The position numbers were made by a program, and so were the translations under genes. From NCBI GenBank assembly GCA_018669975.1, contig JABHSK010000001.1, positions 24,394 to 88,393 of the forward strand: a stretch of DNA of 64,000 bases, read 5' to 3'. Positions 6,318 to 62,717 of the stretch are shown here, piece by piece. Positions within the stretch are counted from its first letter, which is position 1; every line of letters starts with the position of its first letter. Source of the stretch: Candidatus Parcubacteria bacterium (GTDB taxonomy: Bacteria > Patescibacteriota > Patescibacteriia > UBA1558 > GWA2-36-10). The notes beneath the pieces were generated by a model. That model did not search any database, was not told the origin of the DNA, and saw only the letters and a program-made list of their open reading frames with translations.

Positions 6318-6377
6318 AGTTAAATTTAGCTAGCTTGGAGTGTCAGCCTGATTTATTTTTAGTTGTTCGAGTATATT

Positions 6378-15362: not shown

Positions 15363-15436
15363 TGGCTCGGGGACAGGGGCTCGAACCCCGATTGCCTGGA
15401 CCAGAACCAGGTGTCCTACCATTAGACGATCCCCGA
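15363..15436 (-). tRNA. tRNA-Gln (anticodon CUG).
   Basis: The reverse complement folds as a cloverleaf. Acceptor stem TCGGGGA/TCCCCGA, anticodon loop TTCTGGT, T-loop GGTTCGAGCCCC, encoded CCA. Confidence 0.85.
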
Positions 15437-45195: not shown

Positions 45196-45576
45196 ATGGA
45201 ACGCTTAAAGTCAATCTTTAGTAGAATTTCCTTTATCTTTTGGATTCTCGTCTACGCCATAGTCTTCAATGGCCTCTATGACATCGGGTTGGATATCGCA
45301 CCTGGTGCCAAGTCTGCCATCATCTGCGGCCTCTTGGCTGGCACTTTCCTGGTCTATACAGTCCATAGATACAAAAATCATATTTGCACCACCCTCCGCT
45401 GCCGCATGTACAACGGCGCTGCTGTCTTCATTTTTATCTCTCTCTTGGATATCAAAAAGTACGCCACCAACGATCTGGCGATTCGCACTGTCTCTGCTAT
45501 GATGGTATATACCATCATCACACTGTTCGCTCTCTGGTTGGCTCGCCGCAGAAATGCCACCACGGCTACTCCTTGA
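45196..45576 (+). CDS. Small polytopic membrane protein (126 aa) with markedly higher GC than its neighbours, probably horizontally acquired. Function unknown.
   Basis: Own promoter, SD and perfect terminator. About 50% GC, which is why several overlapping alternative-frame ORFs are reported here. Confidence 0.55.
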   Translation: MERLKSIFSRISFIFWILVYAIVFNGLYDIGLDIAPGAKSAIICGLLAGTFLVYTVHRYKNHICTTLRCRMYNGAAVFIFISLLDIKKYATNDLAIRTVSAMMVYTIITLFALWLARRRNATTATP

Positions 45577-51296: not shown

Positions 51297-51770
51297 TTAC
51301 TGCTTTCGAAATTTTATAATATTATAGCCAGCTACAGCCATGGCCACTCCGACATTAAGCGATTCTTTAATACCGTTCATGGGTAATGATATAGTAGTGT
51401 CAACTTTTTTCATCAAGGCTGATGATAAGCCACTGACTTCATTACCAACAATCAAGGCTAAGGGAAACTGAGGTTTAAATTCCAGATAATCAATTGACTC
51501 ACTACCAGTTTCTAAAGCCACTGTCTTAACACCCTCTCTGCGTAATTTATCTATCAAATAAGAAATATTTTTATAGTGTTGCCATGGAACTGAATCCTCT
51601 GCTCCCAGCGCTACTTTTGAGATTTCCTTACGCGGTGGTTGCCCAGAATAACCAGTTAAAAACAGCTGGTCTACTCCCATAGCATCAGCTGTACGAAACA
51701 TTGTTCCAATATTATAAAGACTGCGAATATTGTGAACAATTATATAAAAATCATTTTTATTTGTTGTCAT
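51297..51770 (-). CDS. SpoU/TrmH-family tRNA 2'-O-methyltransferase (TrmL-like size).
   Basis: 157 aa; SPOUT motifs (LIVGNEVSGLS, LNVGVAMAV). Confidence 0.7.
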   Translation of the reverse strand: MTTNKNDFYIIVHNIRSLYNIGTMFRTADAMGVDQLFLTGYSGQPPRKEISKVALGAEDSVPWQHYKNISYLIDKLRREGVKTVALETGSESIDYLEFKPQFPLALIVGNEVSGLSSALMKKVDTTISLPMNGIKESLNVGVAMAVAGYNIIKFRKQ

Positions 51771-53361
51771 GATAGACCTCTTCTTTCTTTTCTTTCATAA
51801 AACCAAGCCAATCTTCAAAAGCAGACACAAATAACTTAAACGGTGCTTCAATAATAAAATCCATCACAAAAGCAAAGACGTTTATCTTCTTAAACTTAGT
51901 AGACATCCAACGACCAGAAGCAACTATAGGTAGGGAAAAGAAATTTATTAAAAATGATACTACTCCTTCACGCTTTTGTAGAACCAAAAATTCTTTGGCA
52001 GTAGCACGAATTTTGATAGCAAAAAAGCTAACCGCTGTTAAGAAGAATAGAAATATAGCACCACTAAATAGATTGAACTCTAGGCGGCGTAATAAATAAA
52101 TAAAAGCTCCAAATACTACTACATAAAGTATTGTATACATAAAATAGTAAAAGATTTGAAAACCAGTATTTTTTCGATATTTAGTTTTAAGTTTACAGAG
52201 AATAGATTTTTCTGGACGATTATAAATCAAGTTGCTAAGATTTTGTAAAATTTTCTCTGTATTTTTCTTGCTAGGTGGTCTAACTGTCATAGTCACCAAG
52301 AACATCAATAATGGTGGGAAAACAACATTAATACCTAAGTTAATATAATTCACCTCTTTAATAATATATAACTCATATGGAAGCTCGAGGGCAACAGCCA
52401 TTAAAGCTTTGGTGATAAATATATATATAATAGCTCTAACCGATGCCTTTCTAATACGCCTACGAATAATCTTATATTTTTGATTAATTAAAATCTTAGC
52501 TTCCGATTCCAATTCAGCTGGCTCAATCAATAAATCCTTAACATCTCTTCCTTTATCTAGAATCAAACCATACAAAATTTGAAAAGTAACCACTGGCTCC
52601 TTAATTGCCTGCAATATCTTTCTTTGATAGGGATGATGCAAGTTATTCTGAATAGTATTGTAGATAGCTGGCAACTTAGTAGCAAAAAGTTTAATTAATT
52701 TATCATCTGCCTGTATCCACTGATCAAAATATAAATTCAATAAATGAAAAGAGATTATAGTGTCATCAGACTTAACTAATGACTTATGAATTGATATATA
52801 TAGTTGAATATTTTTTTCCTGAATACTAACATTTTCACCTTTAAGCTTAACACGTGATTTAGTCACTTGATACATGGCTTCAATCAATGCATCCTCCACA
52901 TCCTCTGGAGTTAATAGCATATCTATCTCACAAGCCTCTACACCAATCAACCAATTAAAATAATCATTAATTTCATCGCCGTGGTACAAATCATTCATCA
53001 ATAAATAAAGCTTGTTATATTTTTCTATAACTTTCTCTACTTCTTTAACTTTAGTTTCTGGAATACTATTGTTGGGTAGATAACGAGCTCTGATCATCTC
53101 CTCTACTAGACTCTGTGCAATGTTGGGCTTCAACATCTCCATAATAAAACGCCGTTTCAGATTTCTTTCAATCGAAAAACGACGTAATAGATGCACTTCT
53201 TTAAAATCAATACTATTTCTCAACTTTTCATACAAAGAAGCAAAATGACTAGCAATCTCCTCGACTTCTATTTTATCCTCTTCTTTACTAACCTTTTCTC
53301 GACCCTTATAAATGGCCTCTAACTTTTTGTATAAAAATATTATTTCTTGCGAAATTTTCAT
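51757..53361 (-). CDS. Hypothetical polytopic membrane protein (534 aa).
   Basis: Soluble N-terminal half and a C-terminal half with at least six TM helices; no motif recognised. Confidence 0.45.
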   Translation of the reverse strand: MKISQEIIFLYKKLEAIYKGREKVSKEEDKIEVEEIASHFASLYEKLRNSIDFKEVHLLRRFSIERNLKRRFIMEMLKPNIAQSLVEEMIRARYLPNNSIPETKVKEVEKVIEKYNKLYLLMNDLYHGDEINDYFNWLIGVEACEIDMLLTPEDVEDALIEAMYQVTKSRVKLKGENVSIQEKNIQLYISIHKSLVKSDDTIISFHLLNLYFDQWIQADDKLIKLFATKLPAIYNTIQNNLHHPYQRKILQAIKEPVVTFQILYGLILDKGRDVKDLLIEPAELESEAKILINQKYKIIRRRIRKASVRAIIYIFITKALMAVALELPYELYIIKEVNYINLGINVVFPPLLMFLVTMTVRPPSKKNTEKILQNLSNLIYNRPEKSILCKLKTKYRKNTGFQIFYYFMYTILYVVVFGAFIYLLRRLEFNLFSGAIFLFFLTAVSFFAIKIRATAKEFLVLQKREGVVSFLINFFSLPIVASGRWMSTKFKKINVFAFVMDFIIEAPFKLFVSAFEDWLGFMKEKKEEVYHDNK

Positions 53362-53501
53362 AGCTTTAAAATACCATAAATCAGCTTTTTTTTCAATCTA
53401 TGCCTAGTATTTTAAACAAATAAAAAAAGGGGCGAGATTTCTCTCGTCCCCCTGTTGATTTGAGCTTGTTTCACCTAATGGTGATTCAAACTACTGGGCA
53501 G

Positions 53502-54497
53502 CTACTTGCCACCCTTGCCGTTGAGGTTCATGAGCCAACCGGACCCGTCGGGCATGATATTGGCCGGCAAGGAGCCGTTCCACTTCTCAGCCGCGATCTT
53601 CTGGGCCTCGGCCTGGATCTTCTGGATATCCAGCTCACGGACCATGATGGCCGCGTCCTGTGCCCGAGCAAACTCCTCGGCCGCTTTACGTGAAGCAGTA
53701 GCCGTGGCTACGGTCTGCTTGTTGAGCTCATCCTGTGCCAGCTTATTCTGAGCTGCAGTCTGGACGCTGAGTTCAGCCAGGAACCGGTTGTTGATACCGG
53801 TCTGGATCTCCTCGTCCTCGTAGATCAGCCCCTCGGCGTAACCAAGGTTGTCGATAGTAATACCGGTCTCCTTGAAATGCTCACGAGTAGCGGCGTAGAC
53901 GCGATCAAAGATCTCGGCTTTGGCACCGCGACCGTCAACCAACTCCAGGGAGCCGAACTCCCGAGAGAGAATCGAGGTGACGTAACCACGCACGTTCTCA
54001 TCGACCACAGCCGACAAAGGCTTACCGGCGTACCAGTACAAGAAAGTCGCCGCGTCGTCCTCACGAACGAAGGAGGTGATATTGACGCCGATGGCGAAAC
54101 CGATGGACTCCTTGGACTCGACATGGATGGCTTCGTTGGCATTCGAGGTGCCGCTGGCGCTATCCTGCGTCCATTCACGAGTAACGGGTTTGCGATCAAC
54201 CTTGATCACGCGCACCGTCGGAATCCATTCAAAATTCCAACTGCGACGACCATTCTTCCTCTTACGCAGAGGAATAGTGACTCGCTTGGCCGCGACCTTG
54301 GCGTCCTCCAGGAAATCCACGGACATGAACTTGCCCTGGGTATCCATGTTGGCGCCTTCCATCGGCACCACGAAAGCAGTTTCGTTGGTGTCGATCTCTT
54401 CGACCACTTCGACTTCGGCCGGACCCCTGCAGCCAGTAAAGGCAAACATGGCGATCAGGCCAACGACGATCAGAGACAGGTACTTGAAATTCTTCAT
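53502..54497 (-). CDS. SPFH/band-7 (stomatin/flotillin-like) domain lipoprotein; high-GC gene.
   Basis: Lipobox AFTGC. The SPFH core (GFAIGVNITSFVRED...VRGYVTSILSREFG...ETGITIDNLGY) is followed by an Ala/Gln-rich coiled coil. SD GAGGAGG. About 57% GC. Confidence 0.6.
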   Translation of the reverse strand: MKNFKYLSLIVVGLIAMFAFTGCRGPAEVEVVEEIDTNETAFVVPMEGANMDTQGKFMSVDFLEDAKVAAKRVTIPLRKRKNGRRSWNFEWIPTVRVIKVDRKPVTREWTQDSASGTSNANEAIHVESKESIGFAIGVNITSFVREDDAATFLYWYAGKPLSAVVDENVRGYVTSILSREFGSLELVDGRGAKAEIFDRVYAATREHFKETGITIDNLGYAEGLIYEDEEIQTGINNRFLAELSVQTAAQNKLAQDELNKQTVATATASRKAAEEFARAQDAAIMVRELDIQKIQAEAQKIAAEKWNGSLPANIMPDGSGWLMNLNGKGGK

Positions 54498-54587
54498 TCT
54501 GTTTCCTCCTCAAGAGGTTCTGAAAGGTTTGAAACGGTTTTGAAACACGATATTCGTGAACAAATATACTAGCAGAGAAAAATAGAA

Positions 54588-54887
54588 CTACTCGTTACTA
54601 TCCGGGGCACTGTTGTACCTACCCAACTTGACCACATACGGAATCCAGGTCAAACCCAGCAGAATAAATCCTGCCCAGTTGATCATGCGTGGGATGGCAT
54701 GCAGTGCGACAGCGCGGCCGGCGACATAGTCGACATCACTGTTGTTGAGCTGCTTGACCGCAACTCCGGCCTCGATGGGACCCTGCGAAGCATTGTAGAC
54801 CTGAATGGTCACAATCCACAGAATCACAAAGATAATTGTGAAAATCATCCTGGCCTTGAAATTGGGCCTACCGATCATCTTACTCAT
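54588..54887 (-). CDS. Small two-TM membrane protein co-transcribed upstream of the SPFH gene (NfeD-position partner).
   Basis: The start is placed at the internal ATG (MSKMIGRP...) because SD AAGGAGG lies 6 nt upstream. Two hydrophobic helices. Confidence 0.5.
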   Translation of the reverse strand: MSKMIGRPNFKARMIFTIIFVILWIVTIQVYNASQGPIEAGVAVKQLNNSDVDYVAGRAVALHAIPRMINWAGFILLGLTWIPYVVKLGRYNSAPDSNE

Positions 54888-55102
54888 GTTTTGCCTCCTT
54901 AATGGCAAATGGTGATTGATTGGGAAACAACGATTTTACCGAATCTATTTTAAATCCTTGCGTTCAAGGCAGTAAAAAAATATACACGATAATAACAGAC
55001 TACATTAGCATAATACCTTGATTTTGTCAAGTATTAAGCTAAAAACCTTAAAAAAATAGGTAAATAAAAAGGACTCCAATTTGGAGCCCCTAATCTGATA
55101 GT

Positions 55103-55741
55103 TTAGCTATCAAGACTAAAGCTTTTCTCTGGCATACCAGGACAAGTGCCTCGCGGACCGAGAGTAGCCATAAAAACAAGGTTGCTCTGCCAGCTAATAT
55201 CACCCAATTCGGAAGCTATTTCCATAGCCATGGGAAGCAAATCAGCCTCTGGCAACACTGACAAAGTGATATGTGGTACAAACGTATCCATGGTCAATGG
55301 ATTACCCCATTTGGCCAAGTTTTTACGCCGAGCAGCACCTATATCAACTTCGCCTGTTAGACAGCCGGAATGTAAGCCAGTGATAAAATCCTGACGAAGT
55401 TCATTGATATCTTTGACCAGTTGGCGATGAATTCCCAACAACGCATCAGTCATATTTACATTCCAAAAAATAGCATTACCAGGATACTCACTGACACCAC
55501 TAAGGGTTAATTCGAGAGGCTTTTTACCCCAAAATGTTCTTTCCATGACAGAATCAACCGCAACTATATTTTCTACTGGAAAAGCAAATTGATGAATAGT
55601 AATGTGCGGAATAGCACTTTCCTCACTGAGGACTAAATCACTACCATGGGCAGCAATTTTTCTACTAACATCAATGGCTATTTGCCTGATTTCTTCAGGC
55701 GGAATAATCACTATGTTGCAGCTTAAAACTCTGGGAAACAT
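55103..55741 (-). CDS. 2H-phosphoesterase superfamily protein (LigT / 2'-5' RNA ligase / cyclic-phosphodiesterase-like).
   Basis: Two H-x-T/S-x motifs (HITIHQ and HITLSV) spaced as in LigT; SD GAGGTG. Confidence 0.6.
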   Translation of the reverse strand: MFPRVLSCNIVIIPPEEIRQIAIDVSRKIAAHGSDLVLSEESAIPHITIHQFAFPVENIVAVDSVMERTFWGKKPLELTLSGVSEYPGNAIFWNVNMTDALLGIHRQLVKDINELRQDFITGLHSGCLTGEVDIGAARRKNLAKWGNPLTMDTFVPHITLSVLPEADLLPMAMEIASELGDISWQSNLVFMATLGPRGTCPGMPEKSFSLDS

Positions 55742-55895
55742 GAGCCACCTCTTTCTTGTAGGGTTTAAGGTTCAGAAAAAATACATATTAAATTAACATA
55801 AAATACTTATTTATGTCAATGAGCATTGACAAATCATGAAACATGTGTTAGTTTCAAAATGTTTACAATTGAATATCTAACAATGAAGCAATGAA

Positions 55896-56007
55896 CGACT
55901 GTCTATATTTGGACGCTTGGATAGTCGGGAGCTAGTAGCGTAACCGGCATTGGCAATAAATTTAATTTGCTTATTTTGTCGGAGACGCCTACCTTAGGTG
56001 TTTTTTT
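55896..56007 (+). ncRNA. Structured RNA element, copy 1: conserved 51-nt core flanked by a covarying 5-bp helix, then an intrinsic terminator. Candidate riboswitch or sRNA.
   Basis: The core at 55901-55951 is identical to copy 2 except for a 5-nt block. Helix cgact(55896-900)/agtcg(55923-27). Terminator hairpin 55984-56002 plus T7. Confidence 0.5.
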
Positions 56008-56051
56008 AGTATAAGTACCTTATAAAATAAGTAAAATGATGAGGTGTTGAA

Positions 56052-56160
56052 CCATAGTCTATATTTGGACGCTTGGATTATGGGGAGCTAGTAGCGTAAC
56101 CGGCATTAAGCTGGTTTTAGGTACAAACAAAACACCTCATTTTTCGAAGGTGTTTTTTGA
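56052..56160 (+). ncRNA. Structured RNA element, copy 2: same core plus a P1/terminator switching platform.
   Basis: Core 56057-56107. Helix ccata(56052-56)/tatgg(56079-83). The stretch gaggtgtt (56041-48) is complementary to aacacctc (56131-38). That same stretch also pairs with aggtgtt (56148-54), which is followed by a T-run. Confidence 0.5.
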
Positions 56161-56184
56161 TAGTCACATCATGGAGGTGCAACA

Positions 56185-56625
56185 TTGGCTAGAATCGCTG
56201 TTTTTGATACGACCTATACTTCTATACGAACCATCTATTATGCCCTAGAGGGTGAAGGACATCAAGTAGTAACTAATGTTTTCCCAGAAAAAGTTTATGG
56301 GAAATTAGTTATGAAAATGGTAACTGACCCCCTTAGTTTGGTGACTAAAATTTTGACCCCCAGACTGGTTGATGGACAAGTCGTAAGACCTATCCCTGAT
56401 GTTTTCATCATAGATTTTCTTAATCTAGATGGTGAAAAAATAGCCAGCATACTCAAGCAAATACATAGTACTAGATCTGTACCAGTAATTGCCTTGAGTC
56501 ATAAAGGGAAAAATATAGATCGTCAAAAGTTACTTCAACTCTACGGCACTCACTATATTCCTAAACCATTTAATGTGTGGAATGTGGTTGATCACGTGGA
56601 AACTTTCCTAGGTGTCACTTGCTAG
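56185..56625 (+). CDS. Standalone receiver (REC/CheY-like) domain protein.
   Basis: TTG start with SD GGAGGTG. Beta3 acceptor Asp (VFIIDF), beta4 Ser (IALSH), beta5 Lys (IPKPF). Confidence 0.5.
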   Translation: MARIAVFDTTYTSIRTIYYALEGEGHQVVTNVFPEKVYGKLVMKMVTDPLSLVTKILTPRLVDGQVVRPIPDVFIIDFLNLDGEKIASILKQIHSTRSVPVIALSHKGKNIDRQKLLQLYGTHYIPKPFNVWNVVDHVETFLGVTC

Positions 56626-56667
56626 TGGCTGGGGGGGGGAACTAAAACCTAGGAAAGGAGGCACATA

Positions 56668-56733
56668 ATGGAAATTATGACGATCGTCATGGGTCTGTCC
56701 CTGATCGATCTCTTTTGGTGGCTGAGGAAATAA
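56668..56733 (+). CDS. 21-aa hydrophobic peptide MEIMTIVMGLSLIDLFWWLRK (type I toxin-like or small membrane peptide).
   Basis: Strong SD AAGGAGG 7 nt upstream. Single TM-length hydrophobic stretch with a basic C-terminus. A paralog lies at 56934-56999. Confidence 0.45.
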   Translation: MEIMTIVMGLSLIDLFWWLRK

Positions 56734-56835
56734 TCTCAGCAAATCGTTAATGATGTCTAGAATAGAAGTTGAAACTATCAATATCTGAGTAGCATCATTC
56801 GGATGCTACCAATCGCCTGTCTATCGACAGGCCGA

Positions 56836-56878
56836 GGGACTCGTCACTGCATAATTCCCCCCAGTGCATACGAGTCCC
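56836..56878 (+). other. Conserved compound hairpin downstream of peptide 1 (copy A).
   Basis: gggactcgtcactgc...cagtgcatacgagtccc. A 13-nt block GACTCGTCACTGC is shared with copy B. Confidence 0.5.
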
Positions 56879-56933
56879 TTTCGATATTTACTGGAGGATG
56901 CTAATCGCTTATATTGAAAGTGAGGTGAAAACT

Positions 56934-56999
56934 ATGGCTTTCGAGGTTATTCTCATCGCTATTGGCGTTGCGGATATCTTCTGGTGGCTGCGTAAGTAG
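56934..56999 (+). CDS. 21-aa hydrophobic peptide MAFEVILIAIGVADIFWWLRK (paralog).
   Basis: SD GAGGTGA. Shares the C-terminal D[LI]FWWLRK with the first peptide. Followed by a conserved hairpin plus T7 terminator. Confidence 0.45.
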   Translation: MAFEVILIAIGVADIFWWLRK

Positions 57000-57068
57000 C
57001 TACCAAGATAGCAACTAGTATCTTCAATTAATATTTATACAGATAGTGCCGCCCGGGTACTATTGTCA

Positions 57069-57117
57069 GAGACTCGTCACTGCCCATTTCCTCCAGTGCA
57101 TACGGGTCTCTTTTTTT
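57069..57117 (+). terminator. Conserved compound hairpin (copy B) plus T7: intrinsic terminator after peptide 2.
   Basis: gagactcgtcactgc...cagtgcatacgggtctc followed by ttttttt. Confidence 0.6.
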
Positions 57118-57156
57118 AAAACAAAAAATCGGATATTACTACCCGATTTTTATAAA

Positions 57157-57921
57157 TTATTTTTCAATCACTGAACCCGAACCAGATATCTTTTGAATAA
57201 CTGTGGCCTTACCACTGTATTCCACATCACCACTACCTTCTATATTTACATCCAAATCCATTTCTGCGACTACCTTAACACTTCCTGAGCCTTCGATATT
57301 TACAGACGTACTATCTGTAGCTAGAGCAGCAGCCTTGATATCACCTGAACCTTCGATATTAGTAGAATGCCTAATAGTTGAACCCTTGAGATTCATCTCT
57401 CCAGAACCAGCGATTGTTGAATCCAATTCTTTTACATCTAGATCTAGCTCAACATAACCTGAACCGTTAATACGTAAATCTAAATTCTCGGTAGTCAGTG
57501 GAGTTTCACCAATTATACTACCAGAACCATTGATAGTTAAATTATCTATATCTGGAATCGTTACATAAACATTAACTGACACAAAACTAATTGTTAGAGG
57601 TTTAAGAGAAACTCTCAGGGTACCATCCCTGACCTCAACTATTAATTTCTCCATAATCTTTTCGTCAGCATCCACCTTTACTAACTGCTCTTCTCCTTGA
57701 GATATGTATAGATTACCAGCTACATCAAAATCAACTCTAGAAAATTCTTCTAATTCAAATTCTTCTGATATTATCTTACCGGTGCCAAAGAAATTCTCCT
57801 TAGAAAATATATCCTTAACTTCATCTTCTAGGCCATTTCTACCAATATACAAACCAACAAAAAATACAGCCACTACCACTATCAACCATAGTAAACCGCT
57901 TCCTTTTTGATTTTTTAGCAT
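57157..57921 (-). CDS. Membrane-anchored GIN-domain (DUF2807, putative adhesin head) repeat protein.
   Basis: N-terminal TM helix. The motif I-x-GSG-x-V/I repeats about eight times (INGSGSI, INGSGYV, IAGSGEM, IEGSGDI, IEGSGSV, IEGSGDV, ISGSGSV). Confidence 0.55.
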   Translation of the reverse strand: MLKNQKGSGLLWLIVVVAVFFVGLYIGRNGLEDEVKDIFSKENFFGTGKIISEEFELEEFSRVDFDVAGNLYISQGEEQLVKVDADEKIMEKLIVEVRDGTLRVSLKPLTISFVSVNVYVTIPDIDNLTINGSGSIIGETPLTTENLDLRINGSGYVELDLDVKELDSTIAGSGEMNLKGSTIRHSTNIEGSGDIKAAALATDSTSVNIEGSGSVKVVAEMDLDVNIEGSGDVEYSGKATVIQKISGSGSVIEK

Positions 57922-58065
57922 AGTTTAAAACATTAATTTATTAATACATGTATTTTAACATTTTTTTGACATAAATTAAAATACTTAGATAATATTGACT
58001 AAATTAATAAATCATACTAATATGCATGGTCGTATTTGGAACCTTAAAACTCAAGGAGGAAAAAG

Positions 58066-58704
58066 ATGAGTCCTGAGAGGATATCAGTAATAATTCAACA
58101 AAAGATTGAAGCCTATGATCCCAGTGGAAATCTTGACCACACTGCTCGCTTGATTCTTGCCCTAATGTCTCTTAGACACTCCCGAACTAAATTACATGTC
58201 GAACGTGTAGCCCTGATGGCTGAAGAAGTGGCCTCTGATATGGGTAAAGATGCTCGGCAAGCTTTTTTTAGCGGACTACTGCATGACATCGGCAAGCTAG
58301 TCTTGCCCTACCACCTATTTGCTGATCAATCAATCACTGATGATGAATTTTCTGAAATTACCAGCCACGCTGCAGCCGGACACAAAGTCCTAGAACCATT
58401 CCATCTCTATACCGCGCTAGTAGCTGGCATTCATCATCGTGCTCAAGACCGTGGCTACGGTCTAACACTAACAGACTTCCCAGAAGACATGCCTTTGTCG
58501 CAGGTCAAGAAAGTTCTCAATATTGCCGTCATAGTCGGCGTCTGTGATTTTATTGATGCCTGGCAAAACCGTGGTGACACCCTCCGTGATGGACGTAAAA
58601 AAACAGACCTTGATTTACGCAGTCTGCTTCTGGAAAAATATCCCGATGATAGCCAAGTTGTTGACTTGGCCCTAGTAGCTGCGGACAAAGTCCGTACCAT
58701 CTGA
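58066..58704 (+). CDS. HD-domain phosphohydrolase, HD-GYP-like (divergent: HDIGK ... HHRAQDRGYG).
   Basis: HD motif LLHDIGKLVLPYHL and a second metal-binding block GIHHRAQDRGYG, which resembles the HHExxDGxGYP block of c-di-GMP HD-GYP phosphodiesterases. SD AAGGAGG. About 50% GC. Confidence 0.5.
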   Translation: MSPERISVIIQQKIEAYDPSGNLDHTARLILALMSLRHSRTKLHVERVALMAEEVASDMGKDARQAFFSGLLHDIGKLVLPYHLFADQSITDDEFSEITSHAAAGHKVLEPFHLYTALVAGIHHRAQDRGYGLTLTDFPEDMPLSQVKKVLNIAVIVGVCDFIDAWQNRGDTLRDGRKKTDLDLRSLLLEKYPDDSQVVDLALVAADKVRTI

Positions 58705-58710
58705 TATATG

Positions 58711-58738
58711 GACCTACTCTCTGAGTGGGTCTTTTTTT
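58711..58738 (+). terminator. Intrinsic terminator of the HD-GYP-like gene (gacctactc tct gagtgggtc plus T7).
   Basis: 9-bp stem with one G·U pair and a U-tract. Confidence 0.65.
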
Positions 58739-58863
58739 ATAAAATAAAAAGGACTGACAAGGTCAGTCCCGTATAATCGCTAATCACCAAAAATTTTCAC
58801 ATAAGGTCTTATTGTCAATTAAATAAAAAATAAAAAACTGAGCTTTAGGCTCAGATTTTTTGA

Positions 58864-58873
58864 TGGCTCGGGG
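58864..58873 (-). other. Orphan 10-nt copy of the tRNA-Gln 3' end (…CCCCGAGCCA), a possible recombination or attachment-site remnant.
   Basis: tggctcgggg is identical to the 3'-terminal 10 nt of both tRNA-Gln genes. No complete cloverleaf can be drawn. Confidence 0.35.
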
Positions 58874-58975
58874 CGCTGGACTATTGTCCAGCATCTTAGG
58901 TCGCTCCTATCGGATCATTGTTTGTGGTTTTGAACCAAAAATAAAAACCCGAACAAAAGTTCAGATTCTTATTTT

Positions 58976-59049
58976 TGGCTCGGGGACAGGGGCTCGAACC
59001 CCGATTGCCTGGACCAAAACCAGGTGTCCTACCATTAGACGATCCCCGA
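58976..59049 (-). tRNA. tRNA-Gln (anticodon UUG). Identical to the copy at 15363-15436 except for anticodon position 34.
   Basis: Same 74-nt sequence with ccaGaacc changed to ccaAaacc on the plus strand, giving anticodon loop TTTTGGT. Confidence 0.85.
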
Positions 59050-59158
59050 ACAAGGAAAATACGCAACAATAATACTATATTTTACTACTTATGTCAACTA
59101 TATAAAATTAAATTTCCCCCGCTGGATTAGAACCACACGAGGGAAATATTTACGGAGC

Positions 59159-59434
59159 CTAGCCCCGAAGTTGGCGCCTTGCCCTCTCCAGATCAGCTGC
59201 CCGCTGCGCCCTTAATTCGTCCCTTCTAAGGTCGAATTGCTCCCTCGAAGGAAGGAGGTGCGTAGTGGGTAGCTCTGGAAGAGAACGACACGCTTCCGGA
59301 AGAATAGGCCTTGACCCTCTTGGGTCAGGAAGCACTCTACGCACTTCCGGGAGCCTAGGAGACTTTTCTGACAAGCCTCTAAGCTGCTGCCTAGCTTCCG
59401 AAAAACTAGCAATGAACCTTGACCACCAAGCCAT
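59159..59434 (-). CDS. Putative 91-aa Arg/Leu/Pro-rich ORF in a GC-rich spacer. A real protein and a non-coding transcript cannot be told apart.
   Basis: Upstream TTGACA, 17-nt spacer, TTATAT promoter. SD AAAGGAGG 4 nt before the ATG. Downstream hairpin (atttccc/gggaaat). The encoded sequence is low-complexity. Confidence 0.25.
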   Translation of the reverse strand: MAWWSRFIASFSEARQQLRGLSEKSPRLPEVRRVLPDPRGSRPILPEACRSLPELPTTHLLPSREQFDLRRDELRAQRAADLERARRQLRG

Positions 59435-59600
59435 GTTGCCTCCTTTAAATATTTATCAACTACTTGGGAATTTGATCAGCATCATATATAAACATATTGC
59501 CTAATCTTTGTCAATGGTTATTGCCTTTTAAAATTACTGTGTTAAGCTGTAAAATGTTAGTCCCCAACCGACAATGTACTTTAAAAGAAAGGATTAAGTT

Positions 59601-60947
59601 ATGTGGAAAAAAGGCGATGTATTAGTGGAGGGTAAAACCAAAAGAATCTTCGATGCAGAAGCTACTCACACCGATACCAAGCACTCGGGTCATCCTGTAA
59701 TAGTAGAAAGTAAGCCGGATATCACGGCTTTCGATGATCCCACAAAAACCAAACAAATTGAGGCCAAGGCAGCCTTTGCCACCTCTACAACCTGCCGAGT
59801 GTTTGAACTATTAAAAGCTGCTGGTATTCCAGTAGCTTACTATCAGCAAGTCTCCCCTACTGAATTTCTAGCTGAACAATGTACTATGATTCCGCTAGAA
59901 ATGGTGGCTAGGCGATATGCAGTAGGTAGTTATCTCAAACGTCATCCAGAACTAGTTTGTAAAGAAGACGAGCAACCGCATCGTTTTCACAAATTAGTTT
60001 GTGAATTTTTCCTGAAAACTACCCGCGGTGAATTGATTCTGCCAGATGGAACTCGCCTAGTCGAAGGTCTAAAACCAGAGGCTGGTGAAGAAGATCCTTT
60101 TATCGCCAATCCAATGGCTATGAACTGGAAACTTTCTCATCCTAAGTTACCCGCCTGGGTAGCAGAAGCCGATCTAAATATGAGCGTCAATCCCAATGCC
60201 ATTCTTCCTGGAACTCTAGGTAGCTCCAAAGAGCGCACCCACCAGATAGTAGATTACCTACAGCGTGTCTTCTTAGTTCTAGAAGGTGCCTGGACTACTC
60301 TGGGTCTACGATTGATCGATATGAAGATCGAATTCGGCATAGACTCTGCTGGTCAACTACGTGTAGCTGATGTCATTGACAATGACAGTTGGCGTCTACG
60401 CACCCATGACTGGGAAGAACTCAGTAAGCAGGCTTTCCGCGATGGCGAAAGCTTGGATGAGGTCGAGCTCAAATACGGAACAGTGGCTGGACTAGTTGAA
60501 AGATTCCGGATTCCTAACCAGGCACTTATCTGCTGGCGTGGATCACTCAGTGATGATATCAAGGGTCCATCAACATCTACCATTCCTGGTATCACTATCG
60601 ATTATGTAACCATGTCTGGACACAAGTCCACTCAAGCATGCCTAATCGAACTGGAAAGAATCATGGGTAAATACCCTGACGGTGGCGTCATAGTGGTCAA
60701 GGTCGGTCGAAGTAATGGTCTAGGACCAATCCTAGCCGCTCACACCACCTGGCCTGTCATCGCCGTCCCCGCTACTATGGATTCTTTTCCTGCTGACGCT
60801 TGGAGTAGCATCCGCATGCCCTCTCATGTTCCTTTAGCAACAGTTTGGCCAGAAAAAAATGCCATCGAATTGGCTCTCAATATTCTGGCACGAACAAACC
60901 CATTGGTATATGCATTGCGCCAACGGGAAATTGAAGATCTAGATTAA
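59601..60947 (+). CDS. Bifunctional PurC-PurE fusion (SAICAR synthetase N-terminal, AIR carboxylase-like C-terminal; PAICS-like architecture).
   Basis: N-terminus: GKTKRIFD, MIPLEMVARRYAVGSYLKR, LIDMKIEFGID (PurC). C-terminus: GSLSDD, SGHKST, GLGPILAAHTTWPVIAVP (PurE-like). About 50% GC. Confidence 0.7.
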   Translation: MWKKGDVLVEGKTKRIFDAEATHTDTKHSGHPVIVESKPDITAFDDPTKTKQIEAKAAFATSTTCRVFELLKAAGIPVAYYQQVSPTEFLAEQCTMIPLEMVARRYAVGSYLKRHPELVCKEDEQPHRFHKLVCEFFLKTTRGELILPDGTRLVEGLKPEAGEEDPFIANPMAMNWKLSHPKLPAWVAEADLNMSVNPNAILPGTLGSSKERTHQIVDYLQRVFLVLEGAWTTLGLRLIDMKIEFGIDSAGQLRVADVIDNDSWRLRTHDWEELSKQAFRDGESLDEVELKYGTVAGLVERFRIPNQALICWRGSLSDDIKGPSTSTIPGITIDYVTMSGHKSTQACLIELERIMGKYPDGGVIVVKVGRSNGLGPILAAHTTWPVIAVPATMDSFPADAWSSIRMPSHVPLATVWPEKNAIELALNILARTNPLVYALRQREIEDLD

Positions 60948-61106
60948 ATAGGTCATCAAGACCATCCCCTCGGGGATGGGTTTTTATTAATAAAAAACCC
61001 GCCAAGGAAAGGACCTGCTTTGAAAAGAGCCGAGTATCCGAACTAGTGTCCGGCGGTCTTTCATTAGCAATGATCACAGTCTCAGCGGGCAATCCCTATA
61101 AAGGAG

Positions 61107-62717
61107 CTAATTTTTTATACTAGCCTTAATAAAGCTTTTAAATAATGGATGTGGTCTCAGTGGCCTAGATTTGAATTCTGGATGGAATTGAGAAGCTACA
61201 AAATATGGATGATCTTTTAACTCAATAACCTCTACCAAACGTTTGTCTGGTGATAAACCAGCAAATCTCATACCACCTGCTTCCAGTTGCTCACGATATT
61301 CATTATTAAACTCATACCTGTGTCTATGACGCTCTGAAATCTTTGGAGTACCATACGCTTTATAACTTAGCGAATCCTTGGATAAAACGCAAGGATAGGC
61401 TCCCAACCTCAAAGTACCACCTTTATCTTCATCGGCAGTATGACCAGGTAATATATGAATGACTGGATTGGTAGTTTTACTATCAAATTCTGTAGAATTG
61501 GCGTCTTCGGTGCCTAAAATGTGTCGGGCAAACTCTATGGTCGCAACTTGCATACCCAAACAAAGACCTAGGTAAGGCAATTTGTGTTCTCGGCAGTATT
61601 TAGCAGCCATAATTTTACCCTCTACTCCTCGATAACCAAAACCACCGGGCACTACTATACCAGAAACTTTTTTGAATTTGTTTATTTCTTTACGATCTTT
61701 CTTTTCCAATTTACTAGCATGGATCCAAGTTAAGTCTAATTTAACTCCATTATGATAGCAGGCGGACTTGAGTGCCTCCACTACACTAATATAGGCATCA
61801 ATATTCTCATTGTATTTACCAACCAAGCCGATGGATAATTTCTTTTTGGTAGTTTTAATTCTTTTGACGTAGGCCTCCCACTTATCGAGCTTTGGCTTTC
61901 TCTTGGGTAACTTCATTTTGTCAAAAAGAATGTCAGAAATCTTGTACTTTTTTTCAAAATATAACGGCACCTCATAAATACTTTTAACAGTCAACGCTGG
62001 AATAACTGATCGTTCATCAAGATCGGCAAACATAGCGATCTTATGAAGATCCTCTTTTTTAACCGCCTTATCACTTCTTGCTAAAATTATATCTGGCTGA
62101 ATACCACGTCGATGCAATTCTCTAACTGACATCTGAGTTGGTTTAGTCTTTAGCTCCTGTGATGCTTTAAGAAATGGTAATAAAGTTAAATGAATAAATA
62201 ATACATTCTCATGTCCCATCTCATTGTGAAACTGACGTAAAGCTTCTAAAAATGGCTCACCTTCAATATCACCGACTGTACCCCCTATCTCTGCTAACAA
62301 AAAATCAGCCTTTGATTCATCAGCTGCTTTCCTAATATAATCTTTTATTTCGTTAGTAATATGAGGGACAATTTGAATAGTTTTCCCTAAATAAACTCCA
62401 CTTCTTTCACCTTGCAATACTTTTTCATAGACACGTCCAGTGGTCAGATTAGATAGTTTGGATAGGTTACTGTCAATAAATCTTTCGTAGTGACCTAAAT
62501 CTAGATCTGTTTCTGTACCATCATCGGTTACAAATACTTCACCATGTTGAAATGGGCTCATAGTACCAGGATCGATATTTAAATACGGATCTAGCTTTGC
62601 ACTAAAAACTGAGTATCCTGCTGAACGCAAAATAGCTCCGATCGATGCGGATGCTATACCCTTTCCCAAACCGGAGCAAACACCGCCGGTAATAAAAATG
62701 TATTTCGTTTTGGACAT
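61107..62717 (-). CDS. pyrG: CTP synthase.
   Basis: YIFITGGVCSGLGKG N-terminus and a glutamine amidotransferase C-terminus (GLCLGMQ). Confidence 0.9.
   Translation of the reverse strand: MSKTKYIFITGGVCSGLGKGIASASIGAILRSAGYSVFSAKLDPYLNIDPGTMSPFQHGEVFVTDDGTETDLDLGHYERFIDSNLSKLSNLTTGRVYEKVLQGERSGVYLGKTIQIVPHITNEIKDYIRKAADESKADFLLAEIGGTVGDIEGEPFLEALRQFHNEMGHENVLFIHLTLLPFLKASQELKTKPTQMSVRELHRRGIQPDIILARSDKAVKKEDLHKIAMFADLDERSVIPALTVKSIYEVPLYFEKKYKISDILFDKMKLPKRKPKLDKWEAYVKRIKTTKKKLSIGLVGKYNENIDAYISVVEALKSACYHNGVKLDLTWIHASKLEKKDRKEINKFKKVSGIVVPGGFGYRGVEGKIMAAKYCREHKLPYLGLCLGMQVATIEFARHILGTEDANSTEFDSKTTNPVIHILPGHTADEDKGGTLRLGAYPCVLSKDSLSYKAYGTPKISERHRHRYEFNNEYREQLEAGGMRFAGLSPDKRLVEVIELKDHPYFVASQFHPEFKSRPLRPHPLFKSFIKASIKN

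What the first reader, a model, noticed from the sequence alone, without database searches (positions are those of the whole stretch)
53400..61000. GC-rich, probably horizontally acquired segment carrying signalling- and adhesion-type genes but no integrase
Coding GC rises from about 35% in the flanks to about 45-57% across 53.4-61.0 kb. The segment carries an SPFH lipoprotein with a membrane partner, a 2H phosphoesterase (LigT-like; this family includes cyclic-nucleotide phosphodiesterases), a standalone REC domain, a GIN/DUF2807 adhesin-like repeat protein, a divergent HD-GYP-like phosphohydrolase, a second tRNA-Gln and a PurC-PurE fusion. Together with the candidate riboswitch this looks like an imported cyclic-nucleotide or second-messenger-linked surface module. 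That is unusual for reduced CPR-type genomes, which generally lack such signalling. No integrase, transposase or flanking direct repeats were found in the window.
Basis: partly seen in the sequence, partly recalled or inferred. Interest (0 to 1): 0.7.

Follow-up and report, generated by a model that had tools for sequence, protein, structure and literature searches.

The report
Variable gene hot spot with c-di-GMP riboswitches
The GC-rich stretch is real, but it is a patchwork of gene cassettes of different ages at a variable chromosomal spot beside a tRNA gene in a tiny marine Parcubacteria genome, not one imported island, and its conserved core is a pair of cyclic-di-GMP riboswitches, which suggests these reduced bacteria sense that messenger.

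Summary
The GC rise at 53.4-61.0 kb is real: 0.43 against 0.35, with tetranucleotide z up to 14.7. It is not uniform. GC3 against a native 0.27 is 0.72/0.66 for the SPFH pair, 0.34-0.39 for 2H, HD and PurC-PurE, and native for the REC-like and DUF2807 genes.

The organism is a marine 'Candidatus Parcubacteria' MAG, seen on an 844.5-kb contig. The same junctions occur in at least 9 independent assemblies, so this is not a chimera.

In family-level relatives (66-76% identity) the flanks are syntenic, but the pyrG to 534-aa-gene gap holds different genes each time. tRNA-Gln(UUG) is always there, and c-di-GMP-II riboswitches in most.

A close relative carries SPFH, 2H, tandem riboswitch-REC, DUF2807 and HD in the same place with similar composition. 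It lacks PurC-PurE.

The SPFH pair is a discrete 1.5-kb cassette, 81% identical in DNA to a copy in another genomic context. PurC-PurE is an ordinary Patescibacteria purine gene.

The two aptamers score 67 and 62 bits. They covary and each has its own terminator. They precede a receiver-like protein and conserved 21-aa micropeptides.

Verdict: a layered hot spot, not one imported module. The c-di-GMP sensing is old at this locus.

The parts
51757..53361 (-). Left anchor: lineage-specific 534-aa membrane protein gene of native composition. It bounds the variable gap in all relatives.
   Evidence: GC3 0.28. Homologs at 66-90% identity with conserved downstream synteny SpoU-PfkB-PTA-AckA-RecJ.
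53415..54913 (-). GC-rich 1.5-kb two-gene cassette with its terminator: a 106-aa membrane partner (54588-54908) and a 331-aa SPFH-type lipoprotein (53502-54497).
   Evidence: GC 0.51-0.57, GC3 0.66-0.72. DNA homology to L142 (81% over 1505 nt) is limited to exactly this span, in a different genomic context. The partner is fused to the N-terminus of SPFH in ~407-aa homologs and in the 431-aa gene of the close relative. It matches phrog_200 'lipoprotein' at E 9e-18.
55103..55741 (-). 2H phosphoesterase with both H-x-T motifs intact (PHITI, PHITL), its own promoter and its own terminator.
   Evidence: PF13563 33.5 bits against cut-off 27. Motifs read from the translation. 67% identical ortholog in the same place in L149. 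Terminator at 55091-55069.
55875..55958 (+). c-di-GMP-II riboswitch aptamer 1, followed by intrinsic terminator 1 at about 55984-56007.
   Evidence: RF01786 67.3 bits against gathering score 53.5. Covariation in the 11-aptamer alignment. Terminator fold.
56031..56114 (+). c-di-GMP-II riboswitch aptamer 2, followed by intrinsic terminator 2 at about 56131-56158. The terminator's 5' arm is complementary to the aptamer's 5' strand.
   Evidence: RF01786 62.4 bits. The AUGAGGUGUU/AACACCUCAU alternative helix has dG -14.8 against -7.8 +/- 2.0 for shuffles.
56185..56625 (+). 146-aa single-domain receiver-like (REC-like) protein. TTG start with GGAGGTG Shine-Dalgarno. It is the first gene under the tandem riboswitch.
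   Evidence: Response_reg E 2e-5, C-terminal half only. PhoB/OmpR receiver hits. Alignment A2 shows D8 and the DG motif invariant, and the acceptor Asp replaced by Glu in distant copies. Only about 6 full-length relatives among 1.84 billion cluster representatives.
56668..56733 (+). Micropeptide 1 (21 aa, MEIMTIVMGLSLIDLFWWLRK), followed by a long hairpin at 56835-56881.
   Evidence: Conserved after the REC-like gene in L104. Repeat families D3, D6, D7.
56934..56999 (+). Micropeptide 2 (21 aa, MAFEVILIAIGVADIFWWLRK), followed by the paralogous hairpin/terminator at 57068-57113.
   Evidence: Identical peptide in L149/L150. Repeats D3, D6, D7.
57157..57921 (-). Membrane-anchored DUF2807/GIN beta-helix surface protein of native composition.
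   Evidence: PF10988 E 2e-46. PDB 'putative adhesin' 3pet/3jx8. GC3 0.24. 78% identical ortholog in L149/L150.
58066..58704 (+). Standalone 212-aa HD phosphohydrolase of a Patescibacteria-specific 'HD-GYG' family. It resembles cyclic-dinucleotide phosphodiesterases.
   Evidence: HD, HD_5, HDOD. NosR-family c-di-GMP PDE E 4e-9. About 90 homologs of ~210 aa. Invariant H44, H73-D74, H101, H123, G130-Y131, D161. AF2 pLDDT 94. The top 11 PDB matches are PgpH and the HD-GYPs 9rbz, 4mcw, 4r8z.
58976..59049 (-). tRNA-Gln(UUG), a resident landmark of the gap in all six family-level relatives examined for it, with a sigma-70-like promoter at 59097-59069.
59159..59434 (-). Orphan 91-aa Arg/Pro-rich ORF (GC 0.49) with a strong Shine-Dalgarno and its own hairpin. 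Part of the species-specific slot.
   Evidence: Sequence. No family hit. Cluster of one.
59601..60947 (+). PAICS-type PurC-PurE fusion in the species-specific slot, with a terminator at 60962-60979.
   Evidence: SAICAR_synt E 5e-37 plus AIRC E 9e-15. Best PDB matches are the animal PAICS 4ja0/2h31. More than 100 Patescibacteria homologs at 53-61% identity, in the two contexts examined next to PurB, and PurL in one. Replaced by an unrelated 385-aa gene in the close relative.
61107..62717 (-). Right anchor: CTP synthase PyrG, followed by L9 and CtpB. Native and syntenic in relatives.

Best explanation
The segment is a chromosomal hot spot for accessory genes. It lies between pyrG and a conserved 534-aa membrane-protein gene and is centred on tRNA-Gln(UUG), in a family of marine Parcubacteria with genomes of roughly 0.55-0.86 Mb. 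Its content has at least three age layers. Layer 0 is family-wide: the tRNA in every relative examined, and in most relatives one or more c-di-GMP-II riboswitches that gate a small receiver-like protein and small membrane or lipoprotein genes. Layer 1 is shared with a close relative: the SPFH unit, a 2H phosphoesterase, the tandem riboswitch-REC-micropeptide operon, a DUF2807 surface protein and a cyclic-dinucleotide-phosphodiesterase-like HD protein. Layer 2 is found in this species only: PurC-PurE plus an orphan ORF. The raised GC marks cassettes that came from GC-richer donors, most clearly the 1.5-kb SPFH unit. No mobility gene is present, so they probably entered by recombination or transformation (inferred). 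Functionally (inferred): when c-di-GMP binds the aptamers, the terminators form and the REC-like and micropeptide genes are switched off. The neighbouring HD enzyme probably hydrolyses a cyclic dinucleotide.
For: Composition. Not an assembly artefact: identical junctions in at least 9 contigs from different assemblies and assemblers, including an 844.5-kb contig. Hot spot: the flanks are syntenic in L102, L105, L111, L112 and L114, while the gap is 2.0-6.3 kb with different genes in each (ZIP/Zur, a beta-propeller, SIMPL, lipoproteins). L112 has its own GC 0.57-0.60 ORFs. Old residents: tRNA-Gln(UUG) in all six family-level relatives examined for it, in both orientations; c-di-GMP-II aptamers in L100, L103, L104, L109, L111, L112 and L149. 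Layer 1: the 559,896-bp relative has the order 534aa-[431-aa fused SPFH]-2H-REC-33aa-DUF2807-HD-[385 aa]-PyrG. L149/L150 match window 54902-58797 at 77% DNA identity. SPFH cassette: 81% DNA identity to L142 over the cassette only, with unrelated neighbours. It has GC 0.54-0.56 in hosts of 0.31-0.43, but tracks the host in distant homologs: 0.59-0.64 in a 0.69 host and 0.31-0.38 in a 0.34 phage-like contig. So GC 0.55 is not intrinsic to the gene. Riboswitches: 67.3 and 62.4 bits; 94.9% of cells paired, 11 of 16 pairs with compensatory changes, 0 of 500 shuffles as good; a terminator after every aptamer; terminator 5' arm complementary to the aptamer at p about 0.003-0.04 in 5 of 11 units. HD.
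Against: No integrase, att sites or clean 'empty site' were found, so the acquisition route is not shown. The close relative has the same genes with the same or higher GC, so these are not recent imports into this genome. GC 0.55 has persisted across homologs that are 64-86% identical, which could also mean repeated exchange rather than one old event. The excess GC of PurC-PurE, HD and 2H is modest (GC3 z = 1.3-2.1). PurC-PurE is also somewhat GC-richer than its host elsewhere, so part of the signal is amino-acid composition. REC-like proteins are only 22-35% identical across the family while the flanks are 66-76% identical. 'Ancestral' may therefore hide cassette replacement. The OFF-switch logic is not demonstrable for aptamer 1 (p 0.48). 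No diguanylate cyclase was seen in the 64-kb window, and the rest of the genome could not be read.
Confidence: 0.7

Rival explanations
1. One reading: one horizontally imported island that arrived as a unit and encodes a coherent second-messenger-linked surface module.
For: There is a contiguous region of raised GC and aberrant tetranucleotides with near-zero GC skew and mixed gene strands, inside a window otherwise almost entirely on the minus strand. Signalling-type genes cluster there. SPFH, 2H, DUF2807, HD and PurC-PurE are absent from family-level relatives.
Against: There are three compositional classes, including two native-like genes in the middle. tRNA-Gln(UUG) predates the other genes at this locus, and the riboswitch/REC cassettes are present in most relatives too. 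PurC-PurE is missing from, and the SPFH unit differently organised in, the relative that shares the core. The SPFH unit moves alone as a 1.5-kb cassette. Every gene has its own promoter and terminator. No mobility genes or att repeats were found.
Confidence: 0.07
2. A vertically inherited, functionally integrated c-di-GMP circuit of this genus. The riboswitch-gated REC and micropeptides act as output, the HD protein degrades c-di-GMP, and the 2H enzyme processes the products. The GC excess would be a fading trace of one old acquisition or of amino-acid bias. This is partly compatible with the best explanation.
For: The order 2H-riboswitch x2-REC-micropeptide-DUF2807-HD is conserved in a relative at 77% DNA identity. 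The HD fold matches c-di-GMP and c-di-AMP phosphodiesterases only. The 2H catalytic motifs are intact.
Against: HD-family homologs in the other Patescibacteria context checked (L151/L152) have no riboswitch nearby. A shared promoter motif between the 2H and HD genes is not enriched: 7 matches against 8.9 expected. The HD model matches the c-di-AMP enzyme PgpH as well as it matches HD-GYP. The canonical HHExxDGxxGYP motif is degenerate. The genes are separate transcription units. No cyclase was seen.
Confidence: 0.3
3. No horizontal transfer at all. The GC excess would reflect intrinsic properties of these genes, such as amino-acid composition, expression-linked codon choice or local mutation bias at a recombination-prone site.
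For: PurC-PurE is GC-richer than its host in L145/L147 as well: 0.39-0.42 against 0.35-0.36. GC1 and GC2 are high in HD and PurC-PurE. GC-rich ORFs recur at the same hot spot in L104, L109 and L112, as a local bias such as GC-biased gene conversion would predict.
Against: SPFH GC3 of 0.72 against 0.27 cannot come from amino-acid content. Distant SPFH homologs have host-like GC in both a low-GC and a high-GC host. The same cassette sits in an unrelated context at 81% DNA identity. Native-composition genes (DUF2807, REC-like) lie inside the same hot spot. The ribosomal protein L9 gene next door has GC3 0.23.
Confidence: 0.08
4. Assembly or binning chimera: GC-rich pieces from another organism were joined into a low-GC contig.
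For: There are abrupt GC steps at gene boundaries.
Against: The same junctions (534aa-SPFH-partner-2H; 2H-REC-DUF2807-HD; HD-PurCE-PyrG) occur in independently assembled contigs from at least 9 samples and several assemblers. They also occur, diverged, in relatives L099 and L149.
Confidence: 0.02

Closest known systems
tRNA-linked genomic islands and chromosomal integration hot spots ('plasticity zones') of bacteria
   Same: It sits next to a tRNA gene and has atypical GC, tetranucleotide content and strand organisation. It lies between conserved core genes, and its content differs between relatives.
   Different: There is no integrase, transposase or att repeat. The content is single-gene or two-gene cassettes, each with its own promoter and terminator. 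It is layered by age rather than being one element. The host is a sub-1-Mb Parcubacteria genome.
c-di-GMP-II riboswitch (Rfam RF01786), described mainly from Clostridia and some other phyla (from my own knowledge: Lee et al. 2010)
   Same: Full-length matches above the gathering score. The loop and junction nucleotides are invariant across 11 copies. P1, P2 and P3 are supported by compensatory changes.
   Different: The host phylum is Patescibacteria. No paper in the searchable library links the two. There are two complete aptamer-terminator units in tandem. The downstream genes are a receiver-like protein, 21-aa micropeptides and small lipoproteins, rather than pili, adhesins or ribozymes. 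The design looks like an OFF switch, which is inferred. From my own knowledge, the characterised C. difficile class-II switches are mostly ON.
HD-GYP c-di-GMP phosphodiesterases (PmGH 4mcw, PA4781 4r8z, DvhD 9rbz) and the PgpH c-di-AMP phosphodiesterase HD domain (4s1b/4s1c)
   Same: The H...HD...H...HH...D metal ligands are all conserved. HD_5 is just above its cut-off. These proteins are the only confident structural matches: E 1e-4 to 1e-3, TM 0.52-0.60.
   Different: It is a standalone ~210-aa protein with no REC or sensor domain. The motif is LHHxLYxxGYG instead of HHExxDGxGYP. Sequence identity to solved members is only 17-21%. The substrate is unknown: c-di-GMP, c-di-AMP, pGpG and cGAMP are all possible.
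PAICS (animal bifunctional SAICAR synthetase / AIR carboxylase)
   Same: The domain order is the same, and PAICS gives the best solved-structure matches: 4ja0 at E 6e-53 and 2h31 at E 6e-46.
   Different: It belongs to a large Patescibacteria family at 53-61% identity which, in the two contexts examined, lies beside PurB (and PurL in one). It is a purine-biosynthesis gene, not a signalling gene. Here it is isolated from other pur genes.
SPFH/Band-7 (stomatin, HflK/C-type) membrane scaffolds with a small membrane partner
   Same: Homologs at 47-57% identity carry PF01145. There is a C-terminal coiled coil, and the gene is always paired or fused with a ~100-aa membrane protein.
   Different: This copy is below Pfam's cut-off: 14 bits against 23.6. 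It has a lipoprotein signal peptide, so the domain is predicted to be outside the cell. The partner is not NfeD-like (no Pfam hit). It behaves as a portable cassette and has distant phage relatives: phrog_200 and Bacillus phage G gp65 at 40%.

Membership tests
tRNA-associated integrative genomic island | Composition deviating from the host genome | tested here: met
   GC 0.434 against 0.348; tetranucleotide z up to 14.7; GC3 up to 0.72 against 0.275. It is heterogeneous, however.
tRNA-associated integrative genomic island | Present or absent among related genomes at a conserved site | tested here: met
   Absent from five family-level relatives with syntenic flanks. Largely present in a close relative.
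tRNA-associated integrative genomic island | Integrase, recombinase or other mobility gene | tested here: not met
   No such domain in any ORF of 53.4-61.0 kb with Pfam, NCBIfam, PHROGs or PADLOC.
tRNA-associated integrative genomic island | Flanking direct repeats (att), one within the tRNA 3' end | tested here: inconclusive
   The only candidate is a 10-nt copy of the tRNA 3' end, 112 nt from the tRNA (D17). No repeat brackets the segment.
c-di-GMP-II riboswitch (RF01786) | Covariance-model score above the curated gathering score | tested here: met
   67.3 and 62.4 bits against 53.5, full model length 1-84.
c-di-GMP-II riboswitch (RF01786) | Helices supported by compensatory substitutions in homologs | tested here: met
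   11 aptamers from 7 loci: 94.9% of cells paired, 11 of 16 pairs changed on both sides, 0 of 500 shuffles as good, slid controls at 28-44%. The pseudoknot was not tested.
c-di-GMP-II riboswitch (RF01786) | Expression platform coupled to the aptamer | tested here: met
   An intrinsic terminator follows each of the 11 aptamers. Aptamer/terminator-arm complementarity is significant in 5 of 11, including window aptamer 2 but not aptamer 1.
c-di-GMP-II riboswitch (RF01786) | Selective binding of c-di-GMP | not testable with these tools
   Needs in-line probing or ITC.
HD-GYP phosphodiesterase | HD-superfamily metal ligands H...HD...H...HH...D | tested here: met
   H44, H73-D74, H101, H123 and D161 are invariant in 23 sequences. 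The preceding His of the HH pair (H122 here) is retained in the consensus LHH but is not listed among the invariant or nearly invariant columns.
HD-GYP phosphodiesterase | Signature HHExxDGxGYP | tested here: not met
   The family consensus is LHHxLYxxGYG. The Glu and the Asp-Gly are missing and Pro is replaced by Gly. Bona fide HD-GYPs in the same alignment keep HHERxDGxGYP.
HD-GYP phosphodiesterase | Fold closest to solved HD-GYP domains | tested here: inconclusive
   With a model of pLDDT 94, the top 11 PDB hits are HD-GYPs (9rbz, 4mcw, 4r8z) but equally PgpH, a c-di-AMP phosphodiesterase. TM is 0.52-0.60.
Response-regulator receiver (REC) domain | Pfam PF00072 above its gathering score | tested here: not met
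   24.9 bits against 30.2, matching residues 71-138 only. NCBIfam receiver hits are all far below their cut-offs.
Response-regulator receiver (REC) domain | Conserved acidic pocket, phospho-acceptor Asp, Thr/Ser and Lys | tested here: inconclusive
   D8 and the DG motif are invariant. The acceptor position is Asp in window/L149/L104 but Glu in L109/L111/L112. Ser/Thr and Lys are mostly kept. There is a ~40-residue insertion. The single-sequence AF2 model is unusable at pLDDT 41.
2H phosphoesterase superfamily | Two H-x-T/S-x motifs and a Pfam hit above cut-off | tested here: met
   PHITI (His46) and PHITL (His157) in the translation. PF13563 33.5 bits against 27. No solved relative is detectable by sequence.
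SPFH / Band 7 | PF01145 above its gathering score | tested here: not met
   14 bits against 23.6 on the window protein. Many homologs at 47-57% identity carry precomputed PF01145 hits, so assignment to the superfamily is indirect.
PAICS-type PurC-PurE fusion | SAICAR synthetase domain N-terminal and AIR carboxylase domain C-terminal in one chain | tested here: met
   PF01259 128 bits and PF00731 55 bits. Aligned end to end with 4ja0.

The most novel reading that the evidence does not exclude
A whole family of ultra-small marine Parcubacteria keeps a c-di-GMP regulon. Its parts would be tandem OFF riboswitches gating a phosphorylation-independent pseudo-receiver and a membrane micropeptide, further riboswitches in front of lipoprotein genes, and a CPR-specific HD-GYG phosphodiesterase. 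If these genomes encode no diguanylate cyclase of their own, the ligand would be c-di-GMP made by the host cell they live on. The hot spot would then be a host-sensing locus whose output cassettes are swapped among co-occurring CPR lineages.
Probability: 0.15. Interest if true: 0.8.

Novelty: new member of a known kind. Interest (0 to 1): 0.5.

Why it matters
The island claim itself resolves into something ordinary: an accessory-gene hot spot beside a tRNA. Two points remain of interest. First, gene flux in sub-1-Mb CPR genomes appears to occur as small self-contained cassettes without mobility genes, concentrated at one site. That is useful for understanding how such reduced genomes still diversify their envelope. 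Second, the locus provides conserved, covariation-supported c-di-GMP-II riboswitches in Parcubacteria, mostly in tandem, with unusual targets: a receiver-like protein, 21-aa micropeptides and lipoproteins. It also provides a compact candidate cyclic-dinucleotide phosphodiesterase. This makes the question 'do episymbiotic CPR bacteria use, or eavesdrop on, c-di-GMP?' directly testable with two short RNAs and one 212-aa enzyme.

Tried and rejected
- GTDB species-representative scan with PyrG. None of the fetched loci apart from L017 shared even the CtpB-L9-PyrG neighbours. It was not useful for synteny, so the metagenome scan with the 534-aa protein was used instead.
- IMG/VR scan for the SPFH protein found nothing. 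In phage records there are only distant matches, such as Bacillus phage G gp65 at 40%. 2H has no phage match and HD only weak ones. A phage origin is therefore not supported.
- PADLOC gave only generic Cas3-HD similarity for the HD protein. A defence-system reading was rejected.
- A shared promoter/operator motif (TTAAAATACTTAG) among the 2H, HD and 534-aa promoters is not enriched: 7 matches against 8.9 expected.
- GG[DE]EF, EAL, PilZ and HD-GYP regex search over the window and relatives. The only GGEEF lies in acetate kinase. The 30 proteins scanned with Pfam (the 10 segment and flank proteins plus 20 larger proteins from elsewhere in the window) show no GGDEF, EAL or PilZ domain.
- AF2 of the REC-like protein.
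- Test for recent exchange of the SPFH cassette. I compared the 60-aa L099 fragment (77%) with P0002 (82%). The difference is too small to conclude anything.
- The 209-aa GC-rich neighbour of the SPFH pair in L144 is unrelated to the window's 2H protein.
- The search for homologous proteins did not list the PurC-PurE self hit, because its cluster representative is a 56-aa fragment. The absence of hits above 61% is therefore weak evidence.

Full report
**Observation**

The window averages 35% GC. Outside the segment, 1-kb windows have mean 0.348, sd 0.020 and maximum 0.393. The segment 53400-61000 averages 0.434 and peaks at 0.59 at 53.5-53.8 kb. Tetranucleotide distance from the rest of the window reaches z = 14.7 (53-55 kb) and z = 10.4 (59-61 kb).

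GC skew is strongly negative everywhere else, because nearly all genes lie on the minus strand. Inside the segment it collapses to about zero, and three transcription units point the other way.

The anomaly is real but not uniform. Native genes have GC3 of 0.275 +/- 0.054. GC3 for the segment's genes:

| Gene | GC3 |
|---|---|
| SPFH lipoprotein | 0.72 |
| membrane partner | 0.66 |
| HD | 0.39 |
| PurC-PurE | 0.39 |
| 2H | 0.34 |
| REC-like | 0.31 |
| DUF2807 | 0.24 |

**Gene content**

- **SPFH protein.** It is below Pfam's Band_7 cut-off itself, but its homologs carry PF01145. It has a lipoprotein signal.
- **Membrane partner.** In ~407-aa homologs this protein forms the N-terminus of the same chain. 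The same applies to the 431-aa gene of a close relative. The pair is therefore one functional unit.
- **2H enzyme.** Both H-x-T motifs are intact.
- **HD protein.** It belongs to a family of about 90 standalone ~210-aa proteins. Where a source names the organism, the name is a Patescibacteria lineage. All HD metal ligands are conserved, but the motif is LHHxLYxxGYG rather than HHExxDGxGYP. A confident AF2 model (pLDDT 94) finds as its only significant PDB neighbours the cyclic-dinucleotide phosphodiesterases PgpH, DvhD, PmGH and PA4781.
- **PurC-PurE.** Its closest solved structures are animal PAICS. More than 100 homologs at 53-61% identity were found, named as Patescibacteria where a source name is given, and in the two contexts examined the gene sits beside PurB, and PurL in one. 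It is a normal purine gene of this phylum.
- **tRNA-Gln.** This copy is the UUG isoacceptor. The copy at 15363 is CUG.

**Riboswitches**

Rfam finds two complete c-di-GMP-II aptamers: 55875-55958 at 67.3 bits and 56031-56114 at 62.4 bits, against a gathering score of 53.5.

- Each is followed by its own intrinsic terminator.
- Downstream come a Shine-Dalgarno sequence and the TTG start of the 146-aa REC-like gene.
- Two paralogous 21-aa hydrophobic peptides follow, both ending D[LI]FWWLRK. Each is trailed by a near-identical hairpin.

**Organism and assembly**

The exact proteins are deposited as 'Candidatus Parcubacteria bacterium' (HOB10_00415-00455). They lie on an 844,504-bp contig. A 100%-identical fragment comes from a marine metagenome.

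The same gene junctions occur in at least 9 contigs from different samples and assemblers. A chimera is excluded.

**Synteny**

A metagenome scan with the 534-aa flanking protein returned relatives at 66-90% identity.

- In five large contigs (L102, L105, L111, L112, L114), both flanks are conserved: CtpB-L9-PyrG on one side and 534aa-SpoU-PfkB-PTA-AckA-RecJ on the other. The gap between them is 2.0-6.3 kb, against 7.75 kb here. None of SPFH, 2H, DUF2807, HD or PurC-PurE is present.
- Each gap holds something different: a ZIP transporter with or without a Zur-like regulator, a beta-propeller with a Por tail, SIMPL, assorted lipoproteins. L112 has its own ORFs at GC 0.57-0.60.
- tRNA-Gln(UUG) is in all six family-level relatives examined for it (L101, L102, L105, L111, L112, L114), in either orientation.
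- c-di-GMP-II aptamers are constant in most relatives: L100, L103, L104, L109, L111 and L112 at the gathering threshold. Weaker second or third copies occur in L104 and L112.
- Where the downstream gene is visible, the aptamers precede REC-like genes. In L111 and L112 they also precede lipoprotein genes.

**The close relative**

A closer relative comes from the same sample as the 844-kb contig, on a 559,896-bp contig. Its PyrG falls in the same 90% cluster as the window's.

Its gene order is 534aa-[431-aa fused partner+SPFH]-2H-REC(146 aa)-33 aa-DUF2807-HD-[unrelated 385 aa]-PyrG.

Its DNA (L149/L150) matches window 54902-58797 at 77% identity. It has the tandem aptamers and shows the same or higher GC in the same genes. 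A relative with an 88%-identical 534-aa protein (L099) also has a GC-rich SPFH gene next to the anchor.

The segment therefore has layers:

- **Family-wide:** the tRNA in every relative examined, and riboswitch-gated cassettes in most.
- **Shared with the close relative:** SPFH through HD.
- **This species only:** PurC-PurE plus a 91-aa orphan ORF.

**The SPFH cassette**

This is the clearest foreign piece.

- A protein 86% identical (P0002) lies on a different 69-kb contig of the same sample, with unrelated neighbours.
- DNA homology to it is 81% over 1505 nt. It covers exactly window 53415-54913: the two genes and their terminator.
- The pair has GC 0.54-0.56 in three hosts whose own genes are at 0.31-0.43.
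- In more distant homologs the pair has host-like GC. It is 0.59-0.64 in a 0.69 host, and 0.31-0.38 in a 0.34 phage-like contig.
- The high GC is therefore not intrinsic to the genes. This sub-clade descends from a GC-richer source.
- I could not show whether exchange is recent, because the fragment comparison is too short.

**The other genes**

The GC excess of 2H, HD and PurC-PurE is modest (z 1.3-2.1). For PurC-PurE it is partly compositional, since the gene is GC-richer than its host elsewhere too.

REC-like genes in L104, L109 and L112 are also GC-richer than their hosts. They are only 22-35% identical to the window's copy, while the flanks are 66-76% identical. The riboswitch-REC cassettes may themselves have been replaced over time. 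The evidence shows that the locus has long held such cassettes. It does not show strict vertical descent.

**Mechanism**

Shown:

- The aptamers are bona fide members of RF01786 by score.
- In an alignment of 11 copies from 7 loci, 94.9% of cells pair. Eleven of 16 pairs have compensatory changes, no shuffle of 500 does as well, and slid controls fall to 28-44%.
- Every aptamer is followed by a hairpin plus a U-run.

Inferred:

- In window aptamer 2, the 5' arm of the terminator (AACACCUCAU) is perfectly complementary to the aptamer's 5' strand (AUGAGGUGUU). The duplex dG is -14.8, against -7.8 +/- 2.0 for shuffles.
- Comparable complementarity is significant in 5 of 11 units. It is stronger than for the 3' arm in all 11, though only marginally in one.
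- This is the classic OFF design. A ligand-locked aptamer frees the arm to form the terminator.
- For aptamer 1 the alternative pairing (GUAGCGU/ACGCCUAC) is not better than chance (p 0.48).
- High c-di-GMP would therefore shut off the REC-like protein and the micropeptides. Two switches in series would sharpen the response.
- The REC-like protein keeps an acidic pocket. Distant copies have Glu at the acceptor site. I read it as a small, possibly phosphorylation-independent, receiver-type adaptor.
- The HD protein plausibly hydrolyses a cyclic dinucleotide. c-di-AMP is as compatible with the structural matches as c-di-GMP.
- I found no evidence that the SPFH and DUF2807 proteins are functionally tied to the signalling genes beyond being neighbours.

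**Limits**

- No diguanylate cyclase, EAL or PilZ domain is present among the 30 window proteins scanned with Pfam or in the motif search of all six reading frames.
- The rest of the genome could not be read.
- The literature library holds no paper linking c-di-GMP riboswitches with CPR/Patescibacteria. One paper reports diguanylate cyclase genes in ultra-small groundwater MAGs (PMC9938205). c-di-GMP signalling in CPR is thus not unprecedented.

**Verdict**

The 'single imported second-messenger surface island' reading is only partly right. The segment is a layered accessory-gene hot spot at tRNA-Gln(UUG). It has one clearly xenologous 1.5-kb SPFH cassette, a species-specific PurC-PurE insertion, and a long-standing c-di-GMP-II riboswitch regulon. 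That regulon is the most interesting feature.

Noticed in passing
window 56668-56733 and 56934-56999 (+): Two paralogous 21-aa hydrophobic peptides ending D[LI]FWWLRK. Each has a Shine-Dalgarno sequence and is followed by a near-identical long hairpin (56835-56881; 57068-57113). One copy each is conserved after the REC-like gene in L149 and L104. Their function is unknown; they could be membrane micropeptides or toxin-like.
   Followed up: partly
window 45196-45576 (+): A 126-aa ORF with GC 0.475 and GC3 0.60, on the strand opposite to all its neighbours. It has no hit in Pfam (as precomputed for the identical gene), NCBIfam, PHROGs or PADLOC. It is a second small GC-rich insert outside the reported segment.
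   Followed up: no
window 58857-58873 vs 58969-58985: A 10-nt copy of the tRNA-Gln 3' end (TGGCTCGGGG) lies 112 nt beyond the tRNA, next to a hairpin. It could be the remnant of an att site or a tRNA fragment, or a chance match.
   Followed up: no
window 59159-59434 (-): A 91-aa Arg/Pro-rich orphan ORF with GC 0.49, a strong AAAGGAGG Shine-Dalgarno and its own hairpin. Its protein cluster has a single member. It lies in the species-specific slot with PurC-PurE.
   Followed up: partly
L112 8042-8130 (-) and L111 8112-8195 (-): Additional c-di-GMP-II aptamers downstream of the REC-like gene precede lipoprotein genes. In L112 the gene is a GC 0.60, 356-aa lipoprotein with a poly-proline tract. 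The riboswitch regulon at this hot spot therefore extends to secreted proteins.
   Followed up: partly
window 61107-62717 vs the 559,896-bp relative: PyrG of the close relative is in the same 90% cluster, while the adjacent hot-spot genes are only 67-80% identical (2H 67%, REC 73%, DUF2807 78%, HD 76-80%). The accessory genes diverge much faster than the flank.
   Followed up: no
L154 (Ga0114918_10000068) 5720-6972: A distant copy of the partner+SPFH pair sits in a phage-like context with RNA ligase/dUTPase, NAD-dependent DNA ligase and many small ORFs, at host-like GC of 0.31-0.38.
   Followed up: no
L111 4657-4917 (-): A GIY-YIG nuclease-like 86-aa ORF lies directly beside tRNA-Gln in one relative's gap. 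It is the only nuclease-type or mobility-type gene seen at the hot spot. A Pfam-annotated GIY-YIG ORF also occurs near the HD homolog in L151/L152; the L111 call rests on the sequence motif alone.
   Followed up: no
window 10689-13507 and 17765-20224 (-): An [FeFe]-hydrogenase large subunit with a NuoF-like partner, and a VirD4/TraG-type coupling protein. These are normal for fermentative CPR genomes and unrelated to the finding.
   Followed up: no
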